Assembly (NCBI GenBank): GCA_021534775.1
Contig: GCA_021534775.1_4809.1
Source of the DNA: a phage
DNA length: 30,283 nt
Strand: one strand, 5' to 3'
The translations under genes and the position numbers were made by a program. Position 1 is the first letter of the stretch, and every line of letters starts with the position of its first letter. Positions 1,636 to 26,496 of this stretch are shown here, one piece after another. The notes under the pieces were generated by a model that saw nothing but the letters and a program-made list of their open reading frames with translations, had not been told where the DNA came from and made no database searches.

Positions 1636-1664
1636 AAGGCGCTGAAAAGCGCCTTTACTTTATG
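1636..1664 (+). terminator. Putative intrinsic terminator after tail fibre gene
   Basis: Inverted repeat aaggcgc / gcgcctt with a 6-nt loop, followed by a T-rich tract (tactttat). Confidence 0.45.
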
Positions 1665-1709
1665 CGCTATTAAGTTATACTCATTATACGTTAACAAGTG
1701 AGGTGATTT

Positions 1710-1997
1710 ATGAAATTTGAAGATATTGATAAAGCTCAGAAAGCAAAGGCTCTTCCAAAATACTTAATTTGCGGAATCGACCCTGCAGACAAACGCCTTG
1801 TCTTTTTGAAAGCCGTTACAGGCGATGAACATGGCAATGCAGTTGATTGGAGTATCCCGCTCTTTGAGACAAAGGGAGAAGCCGAACAGGCATTGTTAGA
1901 AAGCAAGATGCCTTCGCACTACAAAGTCAGGACTCAAGATGAAATTCCAACCTTGATTTTGGACAACATTAACAGCGGAGAAGGCTCTAATGGATAA
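1710..1997 (+). CDS. Hypothetical protein (95 aa)
   Basis: ORF with strong RBS (gtgaggtga) 5 nt upstream of ATG. Confidence 0.6.
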   Translation: MKFEDIDKAQKAKALPKYLICGIDPADKRLVFLKAVTGDEHGNAVDWSIPLFETKGEAEQALLESKMPSHYKVRTQDEIPTLILDNINSGEGSNG

Positions 1998-2818: not shown

Positions 2819-3199
2819 ATGTCAAATAAAAATGATTCTATGAGCCATACTTACACTAAAGGCAGCGGCACTGCTTTTGGTTCCAGCATCAAAATTGACG
2901 CTCCACCTTGCTATTCTGATGGATTGGAAGTTGGCAACCGTGACTTGACTTGGGTTTTACGTCGCCAATCCGATTTAGAAGAGAAGTTGGAAAATATTGC
3001 GCGTTCTCTTGAAAGTCTGCGCGACCAGCTTTTTGGTTGTTCTGAAGATGATTCTAAATCTCCAGAGTATTGTGTTAATCACGGTTTGATTGATAATATG
3101 CTCGCCATAACCGCTCGATCAATTGGTAAAACTGTGTCCATTGAGTCGTTGATCAGCCAGATTGCGGACGGCTTTGGTGATGCCCATAAGAGTGAATAG
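2819..3199 (+). CDS. Hypothetical protein (126 aa; ORF-track start 2753 is probably too far upstream)
   Basis: Internal in-frame ATG at 2819 preceded by aaagg; the N-terminal 22 codons of the track ORF are hydrophobic read-through of the intergenic region. Confidence 0.5.
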   Translation: MSNKNDSMSHTYTKGSGTAFGSSIKIDAPPCYSDGLEVGNRDLTWVLRRQSDLEEKLENIARSLESLRDQLFGCSEDDSKSPEYCVNHGLIDNMLAITARSIGKTVSIESLISQIADGFGDAHKSE

Positions 3200-3229
3200 T
3201 GGGTGGATGTTGCTTTAACCGTGAATCGT

Positions 3230-3256
3230 GGGTCGCTTAGGGCGGCCCTTTATTTT
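3230..3256 (+). terminator. Intrinsic terminator ending the plus-strand late operon
   Basis: Stem gggtcgc / gcggccc (one G-U pair), 5-nt loop, then tttatttt. Confidence 0.55.
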
Positions 3257-3842
3257 GCCTGCCGCGCAGGAGTGTACTGCAAATTTCCTGTGGGTACAAA
3301 ATAGTACGGTACTGTCTAGGACTTTTTCTTTGAAAAGTTAGTGGACCAAATGTGTCGTATTTTTGATTAGTGTACCGCAAATTCCATCAAGTAGCAAAAC
3401 GCACCAAAAGACCCATGCCATAAAAACCACACGAACGCAATAATCAATCGACGTTACAGTTTCCAGCGTTACAATTCGAAAGCGAATGATTCGACGCATA
3501 ATAATATGAAGCATAATGATTCGAAAGCGAGTGATTGCGTGTAGGATAATATCGGTGGGGATTATTCTAGATGCATGTAATTTCGCATGCGTACTATTTT
3601 CGGACGAAGGGTCGGCATATTCCTCGTTTTAGTTCGGAACGAAGGGAAAGTTTTGCGCCTTTATAAAACAACGACTTACGCGACCCGCCTTAACGGTCCG
3701 ATATAGGTGTCTATATAAAACAAGGACTTACGCGATGTTCTCCATTTAACGTAATACCTGTTATGCGAACTAAGGCGCATCTCGACGAAGATTATGCGAC
3801 GACGAAGGGAAGGATAAAGGAGTTTTCGCGGAGAAGCGCATC
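3257..3842. repeat. Repeat-rich non-coding region between convergent terminators
   Basis: No ORF of 60 aa or more on either strand. Direct repeats of gacgaaggg at 3603, 3638 and 3801; attcgaaagcga(a/g)tgatt twice (about 3474 and 3520); GTAC-containing motifs gtactgcaaattt (3274) and gtaccgcaaatt (3372). Confidence 0.6.
3662..3735. repeat. Pair of 22-bp direct repeats TATAAAACAA(C/G)GACTTACGCGA
   Basis: Copies at 3662-3683 and 3714-3735 with one mismatch, 52 bp apart. Confidence 0.7.
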
Positions 3843-3872
3843 GAGATAGGGGCGAAGAAAAGCCGCGACTAA
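3843..3872 (-). terminator. Intrinsic terminator for minus-strand gene 3900-4190
   Basis: On the minus strand: GCCGCG cttagt CGCGGC followed by ttttcttcg. Confidence 0.55.
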
Positions 3873-3899
3873 GCGCGGCCTATTAGTAACGGAAGGATA

Positions 3900-4190
3900 T
3901 TATAAGGAGACAATTTTAAAATAAGTTACTTCGCCGCCGAGTTGCGGTACAGCGAGATATTCGCCGCCGATTTCGGTAATCGTATAGACGAAGCCGTTAA
4001 TCGTTACGCGGGATGATACGATGTCCTCGTCGCGATACTTGTAAAGGTCGAGGAAGTTGATCGGCTCATAAATAGGTTCGATAGTTGCGTCTACGTTAGA
4101 GAGATAAACGCTCTCTAAGGTTTCGCCAAATACGTTAGAGTTTTCGGAAGTCTCGACGCGAGCGGAACGGATAGCGGCTAAAGTAATCAT
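3900..4190 (-). CDS. Small acidic protein (96 aa), hypothetical
   Basis: ORF with RBS aggag 7 nt upstream of ATG in the conserved context ccaactaggagattattATG; about 14 Asp/Glu versus 6 Lys/Arg. Confidence 0.65.
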   Translation of the reverse strand: MITLAAIRSARVETSENSNVFGETLESVYLSNVDATIEPIYEPINFLDLYKYRDEDIVSSRVTINGFVYTITEIGGEYLAVPQLGGEVTYFKIVSL

Positions 4191-4214
4191 AATAATCTCC
4201 TAGTTGGTCGGGCG

Positions 4215-4235
4215 GGTAGCGACCTATTCGCTACC
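4215..4235 (-). promoter_or_regulatory. 5'UTR stem-loop with conserved AAUAGGU loop (copy 1)
   Basis: Arms ggtagcg / cgctacc around a 7-nt loop, between the promoter and RBS of gene 3900-4190. Confidence 0.5.
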
Positions 4236-4257
4236 TCATCCCCTCTCGATATAAAAC

Positions 4258-4286
4258 ATTATAGTCTTAGTGTACGAAGAAGTAAA
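4258..4286 (-). promoter_or_regulatory. Sigma70-like promoter for gene 3900-4190
   Basis: Minus strand reads TTTACT, 17-nt spacer, TATAAT. Confidence 0.55.
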
Positions 4287-4297
4287 GCACTTTTTCG

Positions 4298-4600
4298 TTA
4301 TTCTGCAATAAAATATTTATAAGCCTTATCGCCTTCTACGTCGATATACTCGACGATAATTAACGCTTCGCCGCGCGGCGTAACCGTCTCGATAAGGGTA
4401 ACGGCTTCGTCGTCGGTCTTCGCGAAGCGGATGGCGCTACGTTCGGCGTACTTAATATCGTCGAAGGAAAGGCCGATGAAGGCGACCGCGCGGACCTTAA
4501 TGGCGCTAGATTCTAGTTCCGCGTTAACGGCGGCGATAAGAGAGCGAACGGTTAAGCGGTCTTCGTCGTAAGTAAGGATGGAAGAGATTAAAGTAGTCAT
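4298..4600 (-). CDS. Small acidic protein (100 aa), hypothetical; ORF-track start 4657 rejected
   Basis: Internal ATG (MTTLISS) preceded by gggag 7 nt upstream; the promoter -10 overlaps the track ATG at 4657, so the transcript starts downstream of it. Confidence 0.6.
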   Translation of the reverse strand: MTTLISSILTYDEDRLTVRSLIAAVNAELESSAIKVRAVAFIGLSFDDIKYAERSAIRFAKTDDEAVTLIETVTPRGEALIIVEYIDVEGDKAYKYFIAE

Positions 4601-4656
4601 AATAAAGCTCCCGATGCTAGTAGAAGAAAGGGCCATCGCCCGTCTCGATATAAACA

Positions 4657-4684
4657 AGTATACGCGAGTGTACGAAGAAGTAAA
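4657..4684 (-). promoter_or_regulatory. Sigma70-like promoter for gene 4298-4600
   Basis: Minus strand reads TTTACT, 16-nt spacer, TATACT; the upstream part (ctttacttcttcgtacact) is nearly identical to the promoter at 4258-4286. Confidence 0.5.
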
Positions 4685-4728
4685 GAAAAAAGATAAAATA
4701 ATTTATCGCATTTTTATCGAAAAAGTGC

Positions 4729-4756
4729 TTTACTTTTTTCTACACTATATTATAAT
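4729..4756 (+). promoter_or_regulatory. Sigma70-like promoter for gene 4825-5139
   Basis: TTTACT, 16-nt spacer, TATAAT. Confidence 0.55.
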
Positions 4757-4779
4757 GTACTCATATCGGGACGGGATGA

Positions 4780-4800
4780 GTTAACGAATAGGTCGTTAAC
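4780..4800 (+). promoter_or_regulatory. 5'UTR stem-loop with conserved AAUAGGU loop (copy 2)
   Basis: Arms gttaacg / cgttaac around the same 7-nt loop aataggt; the stem sequence differs from copy 1 but stays complementary. Confidence 0.5.
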
Positions 4801-4824
4801 GCCTCTCCCAACTAGGAGTTTATT

Positions 4825-5139
4825 ATGGCTATCGTTACCCGCTTTACCCTCGAAAACGCAACCGCCGAAGTCCAGGGCGTTACGCTTACTTACGGCGAAA
4901 TTCTCGCGAAATTCTCCGGCGTTCGCTTAGGCGAAGAAATTAACGACGCGACGGTAATCGAGCAACTCGCTGCTTCTCGCTTAGAGCGCGACGAAAACGG
5001 ATTCTTCGAAGTCGATGCGGAATTAAATTTATGCGGTAAAACGGCGTTTATTAACGAGTTCGAACTCGCCGTTTTAGTTAATTACGATAGCAAAGCTTAC
5101 GCCTTCGCCCTCGAATTAATCGAAGACGACGAAGAGTAA
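4825..5139 (+). CDS. Small strongly acidic protein (104 aa), hypothetical
   Basis: RBS in the context ccaactaggagtttattATG; about 22 Asp/Glu versus 7 Lys/Arg; C-terminus ELIEDDEE. Confidence 0.7.
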   Translation: MAIVTRFTLENATAEVQGVTLTYGEILAKFSGVRLGEEINDATVIEQLAASRLERDENGFFEVDAELNLCGKTAFINEFELAVLVNYDSKAYAFALELIEDDEE

Positions 5140-5219
5140 GAGAGGATTTTTAGAGCGTCGTGCGCGGCGCTTTAATAAAATTCTTTCGCGCCTAGCGCCC
5201 TAACAAATAGGAGTTTATT

Positions 5220-5846
5220 ATGGTTAGCTTAAATCGCTTTTCTACTAGCGGCGACGTTATCGCAACTAAGACCGCCGACCTCGTTGCATTCTATAATGCA
5301 AATTCCGGCTCAAAACCGATTAAGAAGTTTGCGGACCGCCGGACCGCCGAGACTCGCGTAATCGCGTTAATCGAGTCCTTAAACGCGCTCGATGAGCCGT
5401 CCAACGAATCGCCCATCCCCGACGCGAAGCCGCGCGAGGAAGTGTCCAGCGATGTAAAAACGCATAAGGCGCGTGCGGTCGTTAAAAAGGCCGAGCCGAC
5501 GCAGGAAGAACTCGACGCGATGACCGACGAAGAGTATGAAGCCTTCGTTAAGAGCGGTTTAAACGATAGTGCAAATTGCGTAGTGCAAAATGGAACTCCT
5601 TCCCATCGCCGTTCGAATAGCGAAGGCATTGCAAAAAGTTGGGATAATAAGGAAGTGGCGCAAAAGCGTCTTACCCGTAACGGCGTTATGGTCGAGGGTG
5701 TAGGCGAGTTCAAATCGGTCCGCGTAGCGTTCGCCGCGCTGGGCTTACCGGATAGCAAGCACATTCGCTTCCGCATGAAGCTTAAAGAAGCTGGACGCTT
5801 GAACTTCGAGTTCGGCAACAAGTCCTATACCTTCCAGATTATCTAA
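5220..5846 (+). CDS. Hypothetical protein (208 aa)
   Basis: Same RBS context aataggagtttattATG; contains two tandem ATAGTGCAAA motif copies at 5566-5591. Confidence 0.55.
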   Translation: MVSLNRFSTSGDVIATKTADLVAFYNANSGSKPIKKFADRRTAETRVIALIESLNALDEPSNESPIPDAKPREEVSSDVKTHKARAVVKKAEPTQEELDAMTDEEYEAFVKSGLNDSANCVVQNGTPSHRRSNSEGIAKSWDNKEVAQKRLTRNGVMVEGVGEFKSVRVAFAALGLPDSKHIRFRMKLKEAGRLNFEFGNKSYTFQII

Positions 5847-5852
5847 TCGAAT

Positions 5853-5876
5853 GGCGGCCCTTCGGGGTCGCTTTTC
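5853..5876 (+). terminator. Intrinsic terminator with UUCG tetraloop
   Basis: gcggccc ttcg gggtcgc followed by tttt. Confidence 0.6.
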
Positions 5877-5896
5877 ATAGTGCAAATTGGTGGCTT

Positions 5897-6160
5897 ATGA
5901 ATACGCTCATTCTCATCGCTACGTTGTCCATCGGAAGTGGTCGCACCTTATCCCTTTACGACCATAGTGCAAATTGTGCTTATCCTACGCGAGTTGCGGC
6001 AATAGTTAATAGTGCAAATCGAATGCTATTCGAGACTTGTTGGCGGGTCGATAACGAGAAAGGGCGCATCGTCTTAGGTTATAGTGCGAATCTGCTGGTG
6101 GAGTCGTTCGATTGGACGGTTGAAGGTCGTAAATTGTTACGTAAAGTGACTAAAAGATGA
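5897..6160 (+). CDS. Questionable ORF (87 aa)
   Basis: Short RBS spacing (ggtgg, 3 nt). Three in-frame motif copies translate as HSAN, NSAN and YSAN, so the frame may be a by-product of the DNA motif array. Confidence 0.3.
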   Translation: MNTLILIATLSIGSGRTLSLYDHSANCAYPTRVAAIVNSANRMLFETCWRVDNEKGRIVLGYSANLLVESFDWTVEGRKLLRKVTKR

Positions 6161-6274
6161 CTTATAATAATACACTTTCTAACGCGTTTATGGTTGTAAC
6201 CTTCCCCGTCGTATTACCGATGGCCCTAGAAGTGGAGAAAATGTGTTCCAGGGCCGTTTTATAGTGCAAATTGG

Positions 6275-6763
6275 CTAGTGGCGGGAGAATTGCTCACCTT
6301 CTTTGGCCGCCTCTCCAAAATCCTTGTAGAAATCGTCCATGGAACGGCCCATTTTACTATTGCCGTTTTCATCAATCATCGTGATGCCGTAGATGATATT
6401 CAGTTCACGAATAGCATTAAGCTTGGCTGACGCCGCGACTTCTGGATCACGCACAAGCTTGACCAAATTGTGAATTGCACCTTTTACGCTCCACAAATCC
6501 TTGAGTGGCATCTCTTCCATACGCTTTTTGAAGCGCATCTTGTAGTATGGATTGCGTTGCGTGCAAAGGATTCGCTGGCCAGTGTAGTTATCCGTTGCAA
6601 CTTCCATTCCAAATACTAGTGCAAAAGCTGCGCGCATGTCATGACCCTGAATAACAAGGTCAATGAACTCATCGAATAAAGCCTGATTGTGCTCTGCGAA
6701 TCGCGGGTCTTCAAAGTCTTCAGGCATCGCTACATAATCTTGACTCATAGTGCAAAATCCCAT
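6275..6763 (-). CDS. Hypothetical protein (162 aa; start may be 6748)
   Basis: Minus-strand ORF. Both candidate ATGs are created by the motif (the reverse complement of CAT in cATAGTGCAAAT). Confidence 0.55.
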   Translation of the reverse strand: MGFCTMSQDYVAMPEDFEDPRFAEHNQALFDEFIDLVIQGHDMRAAFALVFGMEVATDNYTGQRILCTQRNPYYKMRFKKRMEEMPLKDLWSVKGAIHNLVKLVRDPEVAASAKLNAIRELNIIYGITMIDENGNSKMGRSMDDFYKDFGEAAKEGEQFSRH

Positions 6764-6783
6764 AGTGCAAATTAATAGTGTGA

Positions 6784-6812
6784 ATTATACAATGGATGAA
6801 CATTATATTCAA
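6784..6812 (-). promoter_or_regulatory. Sigma70-like promoter for gene 6275-6763
   Basis: Minus strand reads TTGAAT, 17-nt spacer, TATAAT; the -10 and 5'UTR overlap the three tandem motif copies. Confidence 0.5.
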
Positions 6813-6976
6813 GTGCAGATTGATGTTCATTATGGCTATAAACGTACACAAATCATAATGCTGCGTGGATTGCGGACCGTGGTGCGTGGTGTACTGTTTG
6901 ATACGTATAAAAGAAATCCATCCCTTTCGCCGCTTGTTATGCAAATCAATGACTTAGCCGCTGCTGGCTGGTTGAA

Positions 6977-7341
6977 GCGTATCATGACGTATCATCCGTA
7001 TTGCCGCAAGTCTTTGTTTTTACTTATATCTTACGGATGATACGTTAAATATATAAATTAACATAAGTATGAGGATATGAAAAAAATTAATATAAATGTT
7101 TTTAAAATGGAGTTAATTAATTTTTCGAATTCTATATATAACGATGCTCAGTTTTATCCGTATCATCCGTAAGATTAATGTACAAGCCAGGCGCGGCAAG
7201 GGCTGTACACTCTTACGGATAGAAAACCATGACGTATCATGACGTAAGGGTGTACCACTTTTGAAAATAGGAATCCAGGAACGGCGCGGCCTGCGGCCAT
7301 GATACGCTTAATTTTTAACCGTATTTTAGGCGTATCAAATG
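6977..7341. repeat. Cluster of direct and inverted repeats flanking an AT-rich core
   Basis: Perfect 15-bp inverted repeat cttacggatgatacg (7030-7044) / cgtatcatccgtaag (7159-7173) around an AT-rich segment of about 110 bp. Further copies at 6987-7000 and 7212-7249; GC-rich islets ccaggcgcggcaagggctg and ccaggaacggcgcggcctgcggcc. Confidence 0.65.
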
Positions 7342-7606
7342 TGTTCAAAACCACGTTTCACGACCCAAGAAAATCCAATCCATAGATAGAATCTAACAAA
7401 CACCACGGACCAATAGCCATACACTATTAAAATATTAACAATCCTGTTTATATATATTTCTAAATATTTCCGCACAATTAATAAATAAAACATCACCTCA
7501 TAATTATTCCATCGCAAAACACGACCCAAACGACAAAAGGCCGCATAAAGCGACCCATTGCACACATTCCATTCTTCGAAACACGTAAACGAGTGTTCTT
7601 TATCCG

Positions 7607-8140
7607 CTACAATTTAGGCATAAATCCTTTGTCAGTCCGCCTTTTTATCTCTCCCTCTATCATTTTATTTGTGACTCTATAACCAATCCTTTCCAATTCC
7701 AGCAACACTTCCTTTTGGTATTTCTTTATTTTCACAATATCAACTGTGTCCCTCCAATAAGAAAATACCTTTTGAATTATTTTTTCATCCATTTTATATC
7801 TTGCAGTCGTCCTGTATTTCATTTTAAATATAGAGTTGATTGCGTCAGTCTTCAACCACTCGCCTCTCAACTCAGGGTGATCATCCCAAAGAGCTATGGC
7901 AAACTCTTGCGGGCTTTTACATCTTTTTCTAAGCTCAATTATATAGTCGACCGTTTTCGTTTTATTATCCAACCTTTCGCGGCAAACTGTGCACTCTTCC
8001 TTGAGCAGCCAGTCAACCTTGTTACTTCGCGACGTTGATTCACCATCCCTTCTGTACCTACCGCAAATGCTTATGCCTTCATTATCCAAGAAGTAATGCA
8101 AGTCTTTAGAGTATTTCGCTTTACGCCAAAAGCCGCCCAT
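7607..8140 (-). CDS. Hypothetical protein (177 aa), AT-rich composition
   Basis: Strong RBS aaggaggg; TGATG stop/start overlap with the upstream gene; Cys pairs (CGRY...CTVC) suggest possible zinc binding. Confidence 0.55.
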   Translation of the reverse strand: MGGFWRKAKYSKDLHYFLDNEGISICGRYRRDGESTSRSNKVDWLLKEECTVCRERLDNKTKTVDYIIELRKRCKSPQEFAIALWDDHPELRGEWLKTDAINSIFKMKYRTTARYKMDEKIIQKVFSYWRDTVDIVKIKKYQKEVLLELERIGYRVTNKMIEGEIKRRTDKGFMPKL

Positions 8141-8559
8141 CACCCCTCCTTAACGACCCGATAAGCAACAATCTTTGCACCAGTCGGGCTTGTGACTTTA
8201 TCCCATGTCAAACTATCCGAAGGAACGGCCTCTTTTGATTTATAACCGTTGAGTAATTCAAACTCAACCATCTTCCCAGGCACCGGATTTTCGCCGCCAA
8301 ACCACACGGTCCACGCATCCTCCTTAATCGGTACATTGCACTCCTTGTATTTCTCAACAGCCTCGCTAAAAAGCTTTATAACATCTTCAGCGGCTTTGAT
8401 GCGCTCGCGGTATTGCTCAATCTCTTTTGTTAGCGACTCATTAAGCTTGAGCAGTGATTCATAGTCCTCATATTCAACGTAGCCGCCTTCATCGTCCTTT
8501 ACAACTTCGCAGGTGCAAGCGTGCTGCGTGCAATAATCAACATCATAACGTTGTGTCAT
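8140..8559 (-). CDS. Hypothetical protein with a C-terminal GG-x-NPVPGK domain
   Basis: ORF with internal start MTQRYD overlapping the upstream stop; C-terminal about 55 aa paralogous to the C-terminus of 9714-10223. Confidence 0.6.
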   Translation of the reverse strand: MTQRYDVDYCTQHACTCEVVKDDEGGYVEYEDYESLLKLNESLTKEIEQYRERIKAAEDVIKLFSEAVEKYKECNVPIKEDAWTVWFGGENPVPGKMVEFELLNGYKSKEAVPSDSLTWDKVTSPTGAKIVAYRVVKEG

Positions 8560-9047
8560 TTTAAGCTCCAAGTATTTAACAGGGTGTTTCGTAAGTTCTG
8601 CACTTCTATCTTAAGCAGGTCAATTTGCAAGTCACGATGGGCCAGTTCAGCGGCGATGTCTGACTTGCTATAAAGTCCTTCATGCGTCATGGCATAGATG
8701 TGCCGCGTATAATAGCCGCCCTCGTCGAGTTGCTCGATGTCACGTTGCCCGACTGCGTATTGGTTATCGGTCGACGGCGCTTGGTCCTGGATTTTGATCG
8801 CTGCCACTTCCTTTAATGAATCGCGTGATGCGGGTCTGTTCTCTTCAAACATCTTTCCATCACCAATTTGCTTGCACCAAAGCGAATCGCCGATTGCGTA
8901 TCCCCACTGGCCGCGCCAATCGTTCCATGCAGGCTTCCCCTCATACGCCCAGATGGTTCCGTTAGAGTCACGCGCAACAAATCTTGCACGAGCGTCTATT
9001 TCGTATTCTTTACCTTCAAAATTGATGCGCTGCGTTTTGTTAGTCAT
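8556..9047 (-). CDS. Hypothetical protein (163 aa)
   Basis: ORF; start and stop overlaps with neighbours. Confidence 0.6.
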   Translation of the reverse strand: MTNKTQRINFEGKEYEIDARARFVARDSNGTIWAYEGKPAWNDWRGQWGYAIGDSLWCKQIGDGKMFEENRPASRDSLKEVAAIKIQDQAPSTDNQYAVGQRDIEQLDEGGYYTRHIYAMTHEGLYSKSDIAAELAHRDLQIDLLKIEVQNLRNTLLNTWSLK

Positions 9048-25747: not shown

Positions 25748-25776
25748 TTTACTTGTGCGTTTCGATGAGTTATATT
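25748..25776 (+). promoter_or_regulatory. Sigma70-like promoter (TTTACT, 17 nt, TATATT) overlapped by an inverted repeat
   Basis: Inverted repeat gtttcgatgag (25759-25769) / ctcatcgaaac (25780-25790) brackets the -10. Confidence 0.45.
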
Positions 25777-25812
25777 TATCTCATCGAAACGAAGTCCAAA
25801 AAGGATAAATAA

Positions 25813-26496
25813 ATGAAAAAAGTAATTGTTGTAACTGGCTGCAACTCCGGTCTTGGTAAATCAATTTTTGACACCCTTGGCGCTTACGGTCACGAAGTCG
25901 TCGGAATCGATTTAGACAATGGATATGACATCCGCAATGCTAAACAGATGAAAGAGCTTCTCTCTCAATACGACGTAGAAGGCTTGATCAACTGTGCTGG
26001 CGTCAACTCTAACAACTGGTTTGAAGATGTCAACTACGAAGAGTTCAACCGCGTTATGCACACCAACGCCTTCTCTTTCGTCAACACAACTCAAGCCGCG
26101 CTGAAAAGTCTTATCGACAACAAAGGTTTTGTGATCAACATCGTTTCCAACGCTGCGCATATTCCTATGACGTCCAGCTTGTGTTATAATGCATCCAAGG
26201 CCGCTGCACTGATGATCAGCAAGCAGATGGCCCACGAGCTTACGCCTAAGTACGGCATCACGGTATTCTCTATTAGTCCTAACAAGTTGCGCGGCACTGG
26301 TATGTCTAAGCAGATTGAAGATGCTGTTTGTGCGACTCGCGGCTGGACTCCTGAATACGCCGCTGAATACCAGAAAAAGGCGTTGATGAATGGATTGGAG
26401 ACTGAGCCGCAAGTAATTGCTGACTTCATTCGCCATATCTTAATTACGGGCGCATGGCGCTTTATGTCTGGGACTGATATTCCATTTGGGAAATAA
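25813..26496 (+). CDS. Short-chain dehydrogenase/reductase (SDR) family oxidoreductase
   Basis: TGCNSGLGK (TGxxxGxG), NAG-like INCAGV, catalytic S...YNASK (YxxxK). Confidence 0.85.
   Translation: MKKVIVVTGCNSGLGKSIFDTLGAYGHEVVGIDLDNGYDIRNAKQMKELLSQYDVEGLINCAGVNSNNWFEDVNYEEFNRVMHTNAFSFVNTTQAALKSLIDNKGFVINIVSNAAHIPMTSSLCYNASKAAALMISKQMAHELTPKYGITVFSISPNKLRGTGMSKQIEDAVCATRGWTPEYAAEYQKKALMNGLETEPQVIADFIRHILITGAWRFMSGTDIPFGK

What the first reader, a model, noticed from the sequence alone, without database searches (positions are those of the whole stretch)
4190..4825. Duplicated promoter and 5'UTR module with a covarying hairpin and conserved AAUAGGU loop
The regions upstream of gene 3900-4190 (minus strand) and gene 4825-5139 (plus strand) share a module of about 110 nt: TTTACT / TATAAT promoter, uaucg(a/g)g, a 7-bp stem with loop AAUAGGU, then ccaacuaggag(a/u)uuauuAUG. 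The stem arms differ between copies (ggtagcg/cgctacc versus gttaacg/cgttaac) but remain perfectly complementary. That covariation argues for selection on RNA structure rather than sequence. The loop resembles the downstream Shine-Dalgarno context (aAUAGGag), which could indicate a binding site for a translational regulator or an RNase processing site.
Basis: seen in the sequence. Interest (0 to 1): 0.65.

Follow-up and report, generated by a model that had tools for sequence, protein, structure and literature searches.

The report
Phage early promoter–leader cassette with hairpin
Two early genes in the terminal repeat of this E. coli phage share a duplicated strong promoter and mRNA leader that starts like the phage T7 A1 transcript and folds into a genuinely conserved hairpin; this looks like a generic early-expression cassette shared by several unrelated phages, not a special regulatory switch.

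Summary
The window comes from a Wifcevirus, an E. coli myophage. Two divergent small early genes in its direct terminal repeat each carry a ~113-nt promoter and leader module, ~84% identical between copies.

The hairpin is real:
- Among 12 leader variants from related genomes, 3 of 8 stem pairs change on both sides.
- Two variants are G·U intermediates on the sense strand.
- 47 of 48 cells pair. The apex CGAAUAGGUCG never varies.

- The stem is the tip of a longer hairpin. Its lower helix pairs the purine-rich start of the transcript with a C-rich arm.
- That start, AUCGAGAGGG, sits 7 nt after the −10 box. It matches the annotated start of the phage T7 A1 transcript, whose initial transcribed sequence is reported to favour promoter escape.
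- T7 A1 RNA also folds back on itself and shares GCGAAUAG.
- The same promoter, start and fold-back unit occurs at a third promoter here, in Kylevirus, and about 26 times in the terminal repeat of a Rak2-like jumbo phage.

Best reading: a modular early-expression cassette. A role for the loop as a regulator or RNase site is neither supported nor excluded. No Rfam family matches.

The parts
4188..4300 (-). Module copy A, from the A/T-rich upstream tract to the ATG of gene 3900-4190.
   Evidence: Inverted repeats I1 and I2; alignment.
4258..4286 (-). Promoter PA: −35 TTTACT (4286-4281), 17-nt spacer, −10 TATAAT (4263-4258).
   Evidence: Promoter scan, 10 of 12 matches.
4240..4252 (-). Start box AUAUCGAGAGGGG. 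The predicted start is A4250 by analogy with T7 A1, or A4252. AUCGAGAGGG matches +1 to +10 of T7 A1.
   Evidence: The start site is inferred, not measured.
4210..4242 (-). Full leader hairpin A. The outer helix is GGG.UG / CG.CCC and the inner stem is 8 bp.
   Evidence: RNAfold gives −19.5 kcal/mol, z −3.3.
4215..4235 (-). Apical hairpin A: GGUAGCGA-AUAGG-UCGCUACC.
   Evidence: Covariance model hit at E 2.5e-8; covariation count.
4188..4202 (-). Ribosome-binding site of gene A: UAGGAGAUUAUUAUG, with AGGAG at 4201-4197 and the ATG at 4190-4188.
   Evidence: Sequence. The region is unpaired in the fold of the leader alone.
3900..4190 (-). Gene A. It encodes a 96-aa acidic protein of unknown function.
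3850..3879 (-). Terminator-like hairpin GCCGCG-CUUAGU-CGCGGC followed by UUUUCUU, after gene A.
   Evidence: Sequence. A terminator is annotated at the matching place in phage Mansfield.
4715..4827 (+). Module copy B, up to the ATG of gene 4825-5139.
4729..4756 (+). Promoter PB: TTTACT (4729-4734), 16-nt spacer, TATAAT (4751-4756).
4763..4775 (+). Start box AUAUCGGGACGGG. The predicted start is A4763 or A4765.
   Evidence: The start site is inferred.
4768..4809 (+). Full leader hairpin B. The outer helix is GGGA.GGG / CUC.UCCC and the inner stem is 8 bp.
   Evidence: RNAfold gives −17.1 kcal/mol, z −2.4.
4780..4800 (+). Apical hairpin B: GUUAACGA-AUAGG-UCGUUAAC.
   Evidence: Covariance model hit at E 5.9e-8; covariation count.
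4825..5139 (+). Gene B. It encodes a 104-aa acidic protein, homologous to gp6 of Pantoea phage Kyle.
4601..4690 (-). Third promoter and leader (P3) for gene 4298-4600. It has TTTACT (4684-4679), TATACT (4662-4657), the start box AUAUCGAGACGGG (4651-4639) and its own fold-back hairpin GAGAcGGGC-GAUG-GCCCUUUC (4646-4626). It has no AUAGG apex.

Best explanation
This is a modular early-expression cassette used by host RNA polymerase on the phage's terminal repeat. Each unit has four parts:
- an A/T-rich upstream tract and a near-consensus sigma-70 promoter;
- a T7 A1-type, purine-rich initial transcribed sequence, AUCG(A/G)GA(G/C)GGG;
- a downstream C-rich arm that folds back on that G-rich start, so the 5' end of the mRNA is locked in a stem-loop (copies A and B extend it with an 8-bp apical stem capped by GAAUAGGUC);
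- a short unpaired linker with a strong Shine-Dalgarno sequence.

The start box most likely acts at the DNA/polymerase level, promoting fast promoter escape. The hairpin acts in cis on the RNA. It probably sequesters the Shine-Dalgarno-like, hybrid-prone G tract. It may also form a 5'-proximal obstacle to 5'-end-dependent decay, while the ribosome-binding site stays open.

The whole cassette (promoter, leader and gene) was duplicated in inverted orientation. It has since been recombined onto different genes.

Shown: the duplication; the promoter-like motifs; sequence identity with the T7 A1 start; RNA-level covariation; and recurrence of the architecture in other phages.
Inferred: the start site, the promoter-escape role in this phage, and what the hairpin does.
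For: - Genome context: the window is a Wifcevirus. The cluster lies inside the direct terminal repeat annotated for phage Mansfield.
- Promoters: three TTTACT / TATA(A/C)T promoters with the same start box.
- T7 A1 link: the annotated T7 A1 start is the A of ATCGAGAGGGACACGGCGAATAGCCATCCC. It shares 10 of 10 start nucleotides, a 7-nt discriminator and the octamer GCGAATAG.
- Published function of that start: the A1 initial transcribed sequence supports facile escape in three promoter contexts, and purine-rich starts favour escape (PMC12464699).
- T7 A1 fold: its RNA folds into a three-tier hairpin from +2, at −15.9 kcal/mol and z −5.0. The inner helix covaries in phages 13a and 3A_8767.
- Wifcevirus stem variants: G-C vs U-A; G-C vs A-U vs G·U; and U-A vs A-U vs U·G.
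- Covariation count: 47 of 48 cells pair, and 3 of 8 pairs change on both sides. Slid controls fall to 17-52% paired.
- Outer helix: the 3' arm changes sequence and register but still pairs with the fixed G-rich start. An example is the TH35-type CCCGUC opposite GACGGG.
- Other genera: P3, Kyle and PA1 leaders carry different hairpins at the same position.
- Jumbo phage: in the Asteriusvirus terminal repeat, 26 of 31 promoter units fold at −8 kcal/mol or lower within 40 nt of the start. Only 18% of random windows do so. Mean z is −3.0.
- Unrelated viral contigs show the same start plus fold-back.
- Conservation: the non-coding module is 84% identical, while the paralogous proteins share about 32% or less.
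- Modularity: the B module precedes three different genes in different genomes.
Against: - No transcription start, RNA structure or expression data exist for any Wifcevirus.
- If the start is as in T7 A1, copy A in this window leaves about 8 unpaired 5' nucleotides and copy B leaves 3-5. That is more than the 2-4 or fewer I recall (from memory) as needed for classical 5'-terminal protection.
- Some promoters of the same family in Kylevirus, and at window 25748, have short leaders with no hairpin. The hairpin is therefore not obligatory.
- In silico, scrambling the arms did not consistently reduce accessibility of the Shine-Dalgarno sequence.
- With 45 nt of coding sequence added, the predicted equilibrium probability of the local stem ranges from 0 to 1.
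- One genome (kaset) carries an A·A mismatch in the stem.
- The invariant 11-nt apex, and the recurrence of GAAUAG in four lineages, are not explained by a purely structural role.
Confidence: 0.6

Rival explanations
1. The apical hairpin, with its invariant CGAAUAGGUCG apex, is a sequence-specific binding site. A phage or host protein (a translational repressor or an endoribonuclease) would bind it to co-regulate genes A and B after infection.
For: - The apex is the longest invariant block of the leader across 12 variants, while the lower stem varies.
- GAAUAG recurs at hairpin tips in T7 A1, Kylevirus g6 leaders and at least 6 Asteriusvirus units.
- There are exactly two copies per terminal repeat, on the two divergent transcripts.
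Against: - At 84% background identity, 11 invariant nucleotides between two paralogs is expected about 15% of the time.
- The loop register differs between lineages: GAAUA in T7, AUAGG here, UAG in Asteriusvirus.
- Most Asteriusvirus units, and P3 here, have other loops.
- The hairpin ends 4-8 nt upstream of the Shine-Dalgarno sequence and does not occlude it.
- The loop has no GGA, so it is not a CsrA-type site.
- No candidate RNA-binding protein was identified among the terminal-repeat genes.
Confidence: 0.2
2. A nut/put-like element. The leader hairpin modifies RNA polymerase, directly or through a phage factor, so that it reads through downstream terminators in the two divergent early transcripts.
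For: - The layout resembles lambda nutL/nutR: divergent early transcripts each carry a hairpin with the same loop.
- A terminator-like hairpin lies within the B operon at about 5853-5875.
Against: - The leaders contain no boxA-like sequence.
- The pentaloop AUAGG does not fit the GNRNA pattern.
- Gene A is a monocistronic unit that ends at its own terminator, with only non-coding terminal-repeat DNA beyond it.
- The same architecture precedes dozens of single genes in Asteriusvirus, each with its own promoter.
Confidence: 0.07
3. A DNA-level element. The 7-8 bp inverted repeat would be an operator for a dimeric repressor or roadblock, or a cruciform, located at about +17 to +37.
For: It is a perfect inverted repeat just downstream of a strong promoter, in both copies.
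Against: - Symmetric compensatory changes between two sites in the same genome are not expected for a protein operator.
- Both one-sided variants are G·U on the sense RNA. On the other strand, or as DNA, they would be A·C mismatches.
- The orientation relative to the promoter and the Shine-Dalgarno sequence is conserved.
Confidence: 0.03
4. No function. The hairpin would be a passenger of a recent duplication, and the compensatory pattern would be chance or gene conversion.
For: - Only a few independent stem states exist, and the genomes are closely related.
- Shuffle controls on related sequences can overstate significance (caveat).
Against: - Chance retention of all pairs after four substitutions occurs in about 0.2-0.6% of simulations.
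- There is an independent third covarying pair plus two wobble intermediates.
- Non-homologous hairpins occupy the same position in P3, Kyle, PA1, T7 A1 and Asteriusvirus.
- The non-coding module is far better conserved than the adjacent proteins.
Confidence: 0.08

Closest known systems
Phage T7 early promoter A1 with its initial transcribed sequence
   Same: - It is a strong sigma-70 early promoter near the genome end.
- The discriminator is 7 nt, and the first 10 transcribed nucleotides (AUCGAGAGGG) match copy A.
- The G run pairs with a downstream C run.
- An inner hairpin carries GCGAAUAG at its tip.
   Different: - The T7 hexamers are TTGACT/GATACT.
- The T7 inner helix is only 3 bp with the loop GAAUA. 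Here it is 8 bp with AUAGG, in a different register.
- The T7 A1 leader is about 430 nt long and contains promoters A2 and A3. From memory, it is removed from gene 0.3 mRNA by RNase III.
- Here the hairpin lies 4-8 nt upstream of the Shine-Dalgarno sequence, in a leader of about 60 nt.
Early promoter units in the terminal repeat of Rak2-like jumbo phages (Asteriusvirus: 121Q, PBECO4, vB_Ec-M-J)
   Same: - A 25-nt piece, TATAATGTTTTATATCGAGAGGGGA, is identical.
- The order of parts is the same: promoter, start box, G-rich/C-rich fold-back, Shine-Dalgarno sequence, small gene.
- The location is also a direct terminal repeat.
- A frequent apex is GAAUAGUUC, one nucleotide from GAAUAGGUC.
   Different: - The jumbo-phage hairpin is a single 8-9 bp stem with a 3-5 nt loop and has no apical extension.
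- The −35 is TTGCAA/TTGACA.
- There are about 30 units per repeat, against 3 here.
- The one paper on this group that I checked mentions RpoD-like promoters with UP elements but no hairpin (PMC5259590).
5'-terminal stabilising stem-loops of E. coli and phage mRNAs (ompA 5'UTR hairpin, T7 gene 10 leader); cited from general knowledge
   Same: - A stable hairpin sits at or near the 5' end of a highly expressed mRNA.
- It is followed by an unstructured ribosome-binding site.
- The T7 gene 10 leader also pairs a G-rich 5' end with a C-rich arm.
   Different: - The number of unpaired 5' nucleotides here is unknown. It is predicted at 3-8, which may be too many for protection.
- No half-life data exist.
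Lambda nut boxB and HK022 put RNAs; cited from general knowledge
   Same: Divergent early transcripts carry paralogous leader hairpins. The paralog covariation supports the structure.
   Different: - There is no boxA, and the loop is not of the GNRA type.
- There is no long operon to antiterminate on the A side.
- The class also occurs before dozens of single genes.

Membership tests
Sigma-70 early promoter of the T7 A1 type (promoter plus A1 initial transcribed sequence) | −35 and −10 hexamers at 16-18 nt spacing | tested here: met
   TTTACT, 16 or 17 nt, then TATAAT. Copies A and B score 10 of 12 and P3 scores 9 of 12.
Sigma-70 early promoter of the T7 A1 type (promoter plus A1 initial transcribed sequence) | Transcript begins AUCGAGAGGG about 7 nt after the −10 box | tested here: met
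   Copy A matches 10 of 10 with a 7-nt spacer. P3 matches 9 of 10. Copy B matches 8 of 10 with an 8-nt spacer. The comparison is with the annotated T7 start at position 498.
Sigma-70 early promoter of the T7 A1 type (promoter plus A1 initial transcribed sequence) | Transcription actually starts there, early in infection, by host RNA polymerase | not testable with these tools
   I found no transcript mapping for Wifcevirus.
Structured cis-acting RNA hairpin (conserved secondary structure) | Base pairs are maintained through compensatory changes in homologous sequences | tested here: met
   3 of 8 pairs change on both sides and 97.9% of cells pair. Between 4 and 6 of 500 shuffles reach the observed values. 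Slid controls give 17-52% paired. There are 12 leader variants.
Any described RNA family (Rfam 15) | Match to a curated covariance model | tested here: not met
   No hit at gathering thresholds over the whole window. Only two irrelevant hits appear at E up to 10 in 4150-4870.
5'-terminal protective stem-loop (ompA type) | The hairpin begins within about 2-4 nt of the 5' end | tested here: inconclusive
   With a T7 A1-like start, copy B has 3-5 unpaired nucleotides and copy A has about 8. Some variants pair from +2 or +3. The true 5' end is unknown.
5'-terminal protective stem-loop (ompA type) | Lengthens mRNA half-life | not testable with these tools
   This needs decay measurements.
Intrinsic terminator or attenuator | G+C-rich hairpin followed by a U tract | tested here: not met
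   The hairpins are followed by CGCCCGACCAAC and GCCUCUCCCAAC. The terminator scan did not list them.
Lambda-type nut site | boxA upstream of a boxB hairpin with a GNRA-like pentaloop | tested here: not met
   The 60-nt leaders contain no boxA-like sequence, and the loop is AUAGG.
Translational operator hairpin (T4 gene 43 / MS2 type) | The hairpin contains or abuts the Shine-Dalgarno sequence or start codon and is bound by a repressor | tested here: inconclusive
   The hairpin ends 8 nt (A) or 4 nt (B) before AGGAG. The ribosome-binding site is unpaired in the leader fold. Binding cannot be tested.
CsrA binding site | GGA in a hairpin loop | tested here: not met
   The loop is AAUAGGU, which contains AGGU and no GGA. 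Only the Shine-Dalgarno sequence contains AGGA.
RNase III processing site | About two helical turns of near-continuous double-stranded RNA | tested here: inconclusive
   At most 13-15 bp, with bulges and an internal loop. Cleavage was not tested.

The most novel reading that the evidence does not exclude
The start box plus fold-back hairpin with a GAAUAG-type apex may be one conserved functional unit. It would have spread horizontally or evolved convergently among unrelated enterobacterial phages: T7-like phages, Wifcevirus, Kylevirus and Rak2-like jumbo phages. Under this reading, the apex is recognised by a host factor (RNA polymerase itself, a ribonuclease or another RNA-binding protein). 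That recognition would give the first transcripts of an infection a kinetic or stability advantage. It would be a previously undescribed property of the much-used T7 A1 transcript.
Probability: 0.12. Interest if true: 0.7.

Novelty: new variant of a known kind. Interest (0 to 1): 0.4.

Why it matters
These are probably among the first genes expressed by a phage group reported to replicate exceptionally fast. Their function and control are unstudied.

The analysis links their control region to the best-studied E. coli promoter, T7 A1. It also shows that a fixed purine-rich transcript start is regularly accompanied by a covarying fold-back arm, in several unrelated phages and up to about 30 times per genome. 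I found no description of this pairing in the papers searched.

It gives simple testable predictions about promoter escape, early mRNA stability and the design of strong expression cassettes.

It also warns annotators about two things:
- An ORF called across the divergent promoter region is probably spurious.
- These cassettes act as recombination joints that move leaders between genes.

Tried and rejected
1. My first scan of viral contigs used a pattern that was off by one in the stem. It returned only chance matches, so the scan was wasted.
2. A narrow covariance model of the apical hairpin found only the two known copies. It found nothing in the Kyle, PA1, Asteriusvirus or T7 loci. The apical hairpin as such is specific to Wifcevirus.
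3. RNAfold of leader plus coding sequence suggested a long-range alternative pairing between the 5' arm of the stem and codons 4-8. The leader-CDS interaction energy is no better than in codon-shuffled controls (fractions 0.08-0.85), so I rejected this as chance.
4. I tested in silico whether the hairpin insulates the ribosome-binding site by scrambling either arm. Only copy B showed any loss of Shine-Dalgarno accessibility, so the result is not convincing.
5. The GAUGAG box looks like a hammerhead core (CUGAUGA). There is no GAAA element and no Rfam hit, so I rejected it.
6. GGUAGCG in copy A resembles the core of the ops element as I recall it. Copy B (GUUAACG) does not resemble it, and the 3' end of ops as I recall it is missing. 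I rejected this by eye.
7. AUG-AGG-UAG and AUG-AGU-UAA in the leaders could be two-codon mini-ORFs. The AUG is absent in EC150 and kaset and is GUG in ECO71P1, so this is not a conserved feature.
8. Genes A and B of this window are not detectably similar to each other. A paralog of gene A does sit behind the B module in other genomes.
9. Pfam and PHROGs give no function for any terminal-repeat protein.
10. Searches on Wifcevirus, Rak2-like promoters and the T7 A1 start sequence found no description of the hairpins.
Full report
**1. What is there**

The window is from a Wifcevirus, an E. coli/Shigella myophage of about 68 kb. Megablast of 3000-9000 gives 29 records at 90-99% identity, including WFC, WFH, ECML-117, FEC19, vB_Eco4M-7 and Bas98-101.

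The finding lies in the direct terminal repeat.
- In phage Mansfield, a 3,673-bp repeat predicted by PhageTerm covers the whole homologous cluster.
- Records that include both repeat copies hold the module four times instead of twice.
- By comparison with those records, the repeat spans roughly window 3.3-3.4 kb to 7.1 kb.

**2.

- The upstream regions of gene 3900-4190 (−) and gene 4825-5139 (+) form an inverted repeat of about 113 nt at about 84% identity.
- Each copy carries TTTACT, 16 or 17 nt, then TATAAT.
- Next comes AUAUCG(A/G)GA(G/C)GGG, then GAUGAG.
- The stem is GGUAGCG/CGCUACC in one copy and GUUAACG/CGUUAAC in the other, around AAUAGGU.
- It is followed by CCAACUAGGAG(A/U)UUAUUAUG.
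- RNAfold closes the flanking A·U, giving 8 bp and the pentaloop AUAGG.
- RNAfold adds an outer helix between the G run of the start box and a C-rich segment after the stem. The full hairpin is therefore 4242-4210 (−) and 4768-4809 (+). Energies are −19.5 and −17.1 kcal/mol, with z −3.3 and −2.4.
- A third promoter of the same kind, with the same start box but its own hairpin (GAGAcGGGC-GAUG-GCCCUUUC), drives gene 4298-4600 (−).

**3. Is the hairpin selected as RNA?**

I collected the module from 18 loci of related genomes and found 12 distinct leader variants.

| Stem pair | States observed |
|---|---|
| 2 | G-C (A type), U-A (B type) |
| 3 | U-A, A-U (EC150, with a bulged C), U·G (vB_Eco4M-7), A·A (kaset, the only mismatch) |
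| 5 | G-C, A-U, G·U (ECML-117, RCIP0319) |

- On the six distinct hairpins, 47 of 48 cells pair and 3 of 8 pairs change on both sides.
- Only 4-6 of 500 shuffles reach the observed values. Sliding the partner columns drops pairing to 17-52%.
- Four random substitutions keep all Watson-Crick pairs in about 0.2-0.6% of simulations.
- Both one-sided variants are G·U on the sense strand. This favours RNA over a DNA operator or cruciform.
- The outer helix shows the same logic. Its 3' arm differs in sequence and register between variants (CCGCCC, CCUCCC, CCUCUCCC, CCCGUC) but always pairs with the nearly fixed 5' G-rich box.
- The apex CGAAUAGGUCG is invariant and is the longest invariant block of the leader. 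The next block is UAGGAG at the Shine-Dalgarno sequence.
- A covariance model of the apical hairpin finds exactly the two copies (E about 1e-8) and nothing else.
- Rfam has no match.

**4. The wider context changes the interpretation**

A 25-nt piece of copy A, TATAATGTTTTATATCGAGAGGGGA, is identical in Rak2-like jumbo phages.

In the 21.5-kb terminal repeat of Asteriusvirus vB_Ec-M-J, most of the roughly 50 small genes are preceded by the same kind of unit. The unit runs:
- promoter, then (U/C)AUC(G/A)AG;
- a G-rich arm, a short loop and a C-rich arm;
- a Shine-Dalgarno sequence and the start codon.

Of 31 promoter matches there, 26 fold at −8 kcal/mol or lower within 40 nt of the start. Only 18% of random windows do so, and mean z is −3.0. 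The stems clearly covary, and a frequent apex is GAAUAGUUC.

Kylevirus (Pantoea phages Kyle and PA1) has the same promoter family.
- Orthologous leaders carry different hairpins at the same position: GAAGGGG/CCUCUUC versus GAAAGC/GCUUUC.
- The leader of the homolog of gene B carries CGG-AAUAGA-CCG.
- Other leaders are short and unstructured.

**5. The link to T7 A1**

I checked a recollection against the T7 record.
- The annotated A1 start (position 498) is the A of ATCGAGAGGGACACGGCGAATAGCCATCCC.
- Copy A therefore shares the first 10 transcribed nucleotides, the 7-nt spacer from the −10 box, and the octamer GCGAAUAG at the hairpin tip.
- T7 A1 RNA folds into a three-tier hairpin from +2, at −15.9 kcal/mol and z −5.0.
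- Its inner helix covaries in relatives: GGC·GCC becomes GGU·ACC in 13a and 3A_8767. ATCGAGAGG is invariant, even in Vi06, where the downstream sequence diverges.
- A scan for TATAAT, 6-8 nt, then ATCGAGAGGG in viral contigs found further unrelated examples with an immediate fold-back, such as GAGAGGGA-UUAC-UCCCUCUC.

**6. Mechanism**

For the start box there is experimental precedent. The A1 initial transcribed sequence supports facile promoter escape from T7 A1, a PRM-consensus promoter and T5 N25. Purine-rich starts favour escape. A1 has a 7-bp discriminator and escapes at +8 (PMC12464699). I infer that the conserved box acts at the polymerase level.

The recurring feature across all lineages is that a downstream arm evolves to pair with this fixed G-rich RNA. 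I therefore think the hairpin's basic job is to sequester that Shine-Dalgarno-like, hybrid-prone tract. A second likely job is to give the mRNA a structured 5' end. That end could be an obstacle to 5'-end-dependent decay, or to backtracking and R-loop formation. The ribosome-binding site stays single-stranded. These last steps are inference.

Caveats:
- The number of unpaired 5' nucleotides is predicted at 3-8 here.
- Family members without a hairpin exist.
- The in-silico test of the insulator idea was unconvincing.
- Equilibrium folds that include coding sequence are ambiguous.

**7. Evolution of the cassette**

- Gene A has a paralog (32% identity, E 1e-5) that sits behind the B module in ECO71P1-type genomes.
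- Gene B of this window is homologous to Kyle gp6.
- In ECML-117, vB_Eco4M-7 and RCIP0319, the B leader is joined directly to the homolog of gene 5220. That gene carries the same ribosome-binding block in this window (family D10).

Whole promoter-leader-gene cassettes were therefore duplicated in inverted orientation. The leaders are much better conserved than the proteins and serve as recombination joints. The three small proteins are acidic (pI 4.1-4.6) and have no known function.

**8. Rivals**

The apex is invariant, and GAAUAG recurs in four lineages. Against it: the loop register differs between lineages, most class members have other loops, and the hairpin does not occlude the ribosome-binding site. 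I give it about 0.2.
- Antitermination of the nut/put type, a DNA operator, and absence of function are each unlikely. Reasons are in the rival entries.

**9. Verdict**

The element is a new variant of a known kind: a T7 A1-like early promoter and leader cassette with a 5' fold-back. Its distinctive, covarying apical extension is specific to Wifcevirus.

Interest is moderate. This is not a new kind of regulator. However, the cross-phage coupling of the A1-type start with a covarying fold-back was not described in the papers I searched, and it is easy to test.

Noticed in passing
window 5293-6772 (+): The motif ATAGTGCAAAT occurs 9 times (at most 1 mismatch), all on the + strand. It lies in and between genes of the right half of the terminal repeat. 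Chance predicts 1.0 copies, and no shuffle reached 9. It could be a binding site or a promoter element for a later transcription class.
   Followed up: partly
window 25748-25816 (+) and 1654-1712 (+): Further promoters of the same TTTACT / TATAxT family lie outside the terminal repeat. The one at 25748 has the short unstructured leader AUCGAAACGAAG..., as in two Kylevirus early genes.
   Followed up: partly
window 4578-4784 (+): A 68-aa ORF lies across the divergent promoters P3 and PB. A shorter form is annotated as a hypothetical protein in Bas101 and kaset. It is probably not a gene.
   Followed up: no
window 4809-4845 and 5204-5240 (+); L128, L135, L137: The ribosome-binding block CAA(C/A)TAGGAGTTTATTATGG is repeated before gene 5220. 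In ECML-117, vB_Eco4M-7 and RCIP0319, gene B is missing and the B leader is fused to the homolog of gene 5220. This suggests deletion by recombination between the repeated blocks.
   Followed up: partly
L138 511-795 (−) and equivalents in L139, L140, L141, L125, L136: In several Wifcevirus genomes the B module drives a different gene. That gene is a paralog of gene A (32% identity, E 1e-5). Whole cassettes were duplicated and later exchanged.
   Followed up: yes
window 3465-3552, 3659-3735, 7018-7185: Direct repeats (43 nt twice, 25 nt twice) and a 27-nt inverted repeat lie near the two borders of the terminal repeat (D6, D17, I3). They may relate to genome-end formation.
   Followed up: no
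L155, L158, L160, L163, L165, L167, L168, L170, L172 (IMG/VR contigs): A group of uncharacterised viral contigs carries TATAAT-taagatt-ATCGAGAGGG, followed at once by a 13-14 bp hairpin and a run of seven U. This looks like a terminated transcript of about 40 nt, or an attenuator, with an A1-type start.
   Followed up: no
L143 247-275 and 371-410 (T7 promoters A2, A3): T7 A2 and A3 transcripts also contain self-complementary segments soon after the annotated start: GCUAG-GUAACA-CUAGC and CAGUG-AGUCACCA-CACUG (read by eye, not folded). The fold-back habit may not be limited to A1-type starts.
   Followed up: no
window 3900-4190, 4298-4600, 4825-5139: The three small proteins driven by these promoters are strongly acidic (pI 4.1-4.6) and match no Pfam or PHROG family. 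This is reminiscent of early anti-defence DNA mimics such as T7 Ocr, which is driven by A1-A3. That idea was not tested.
   Followed up: no
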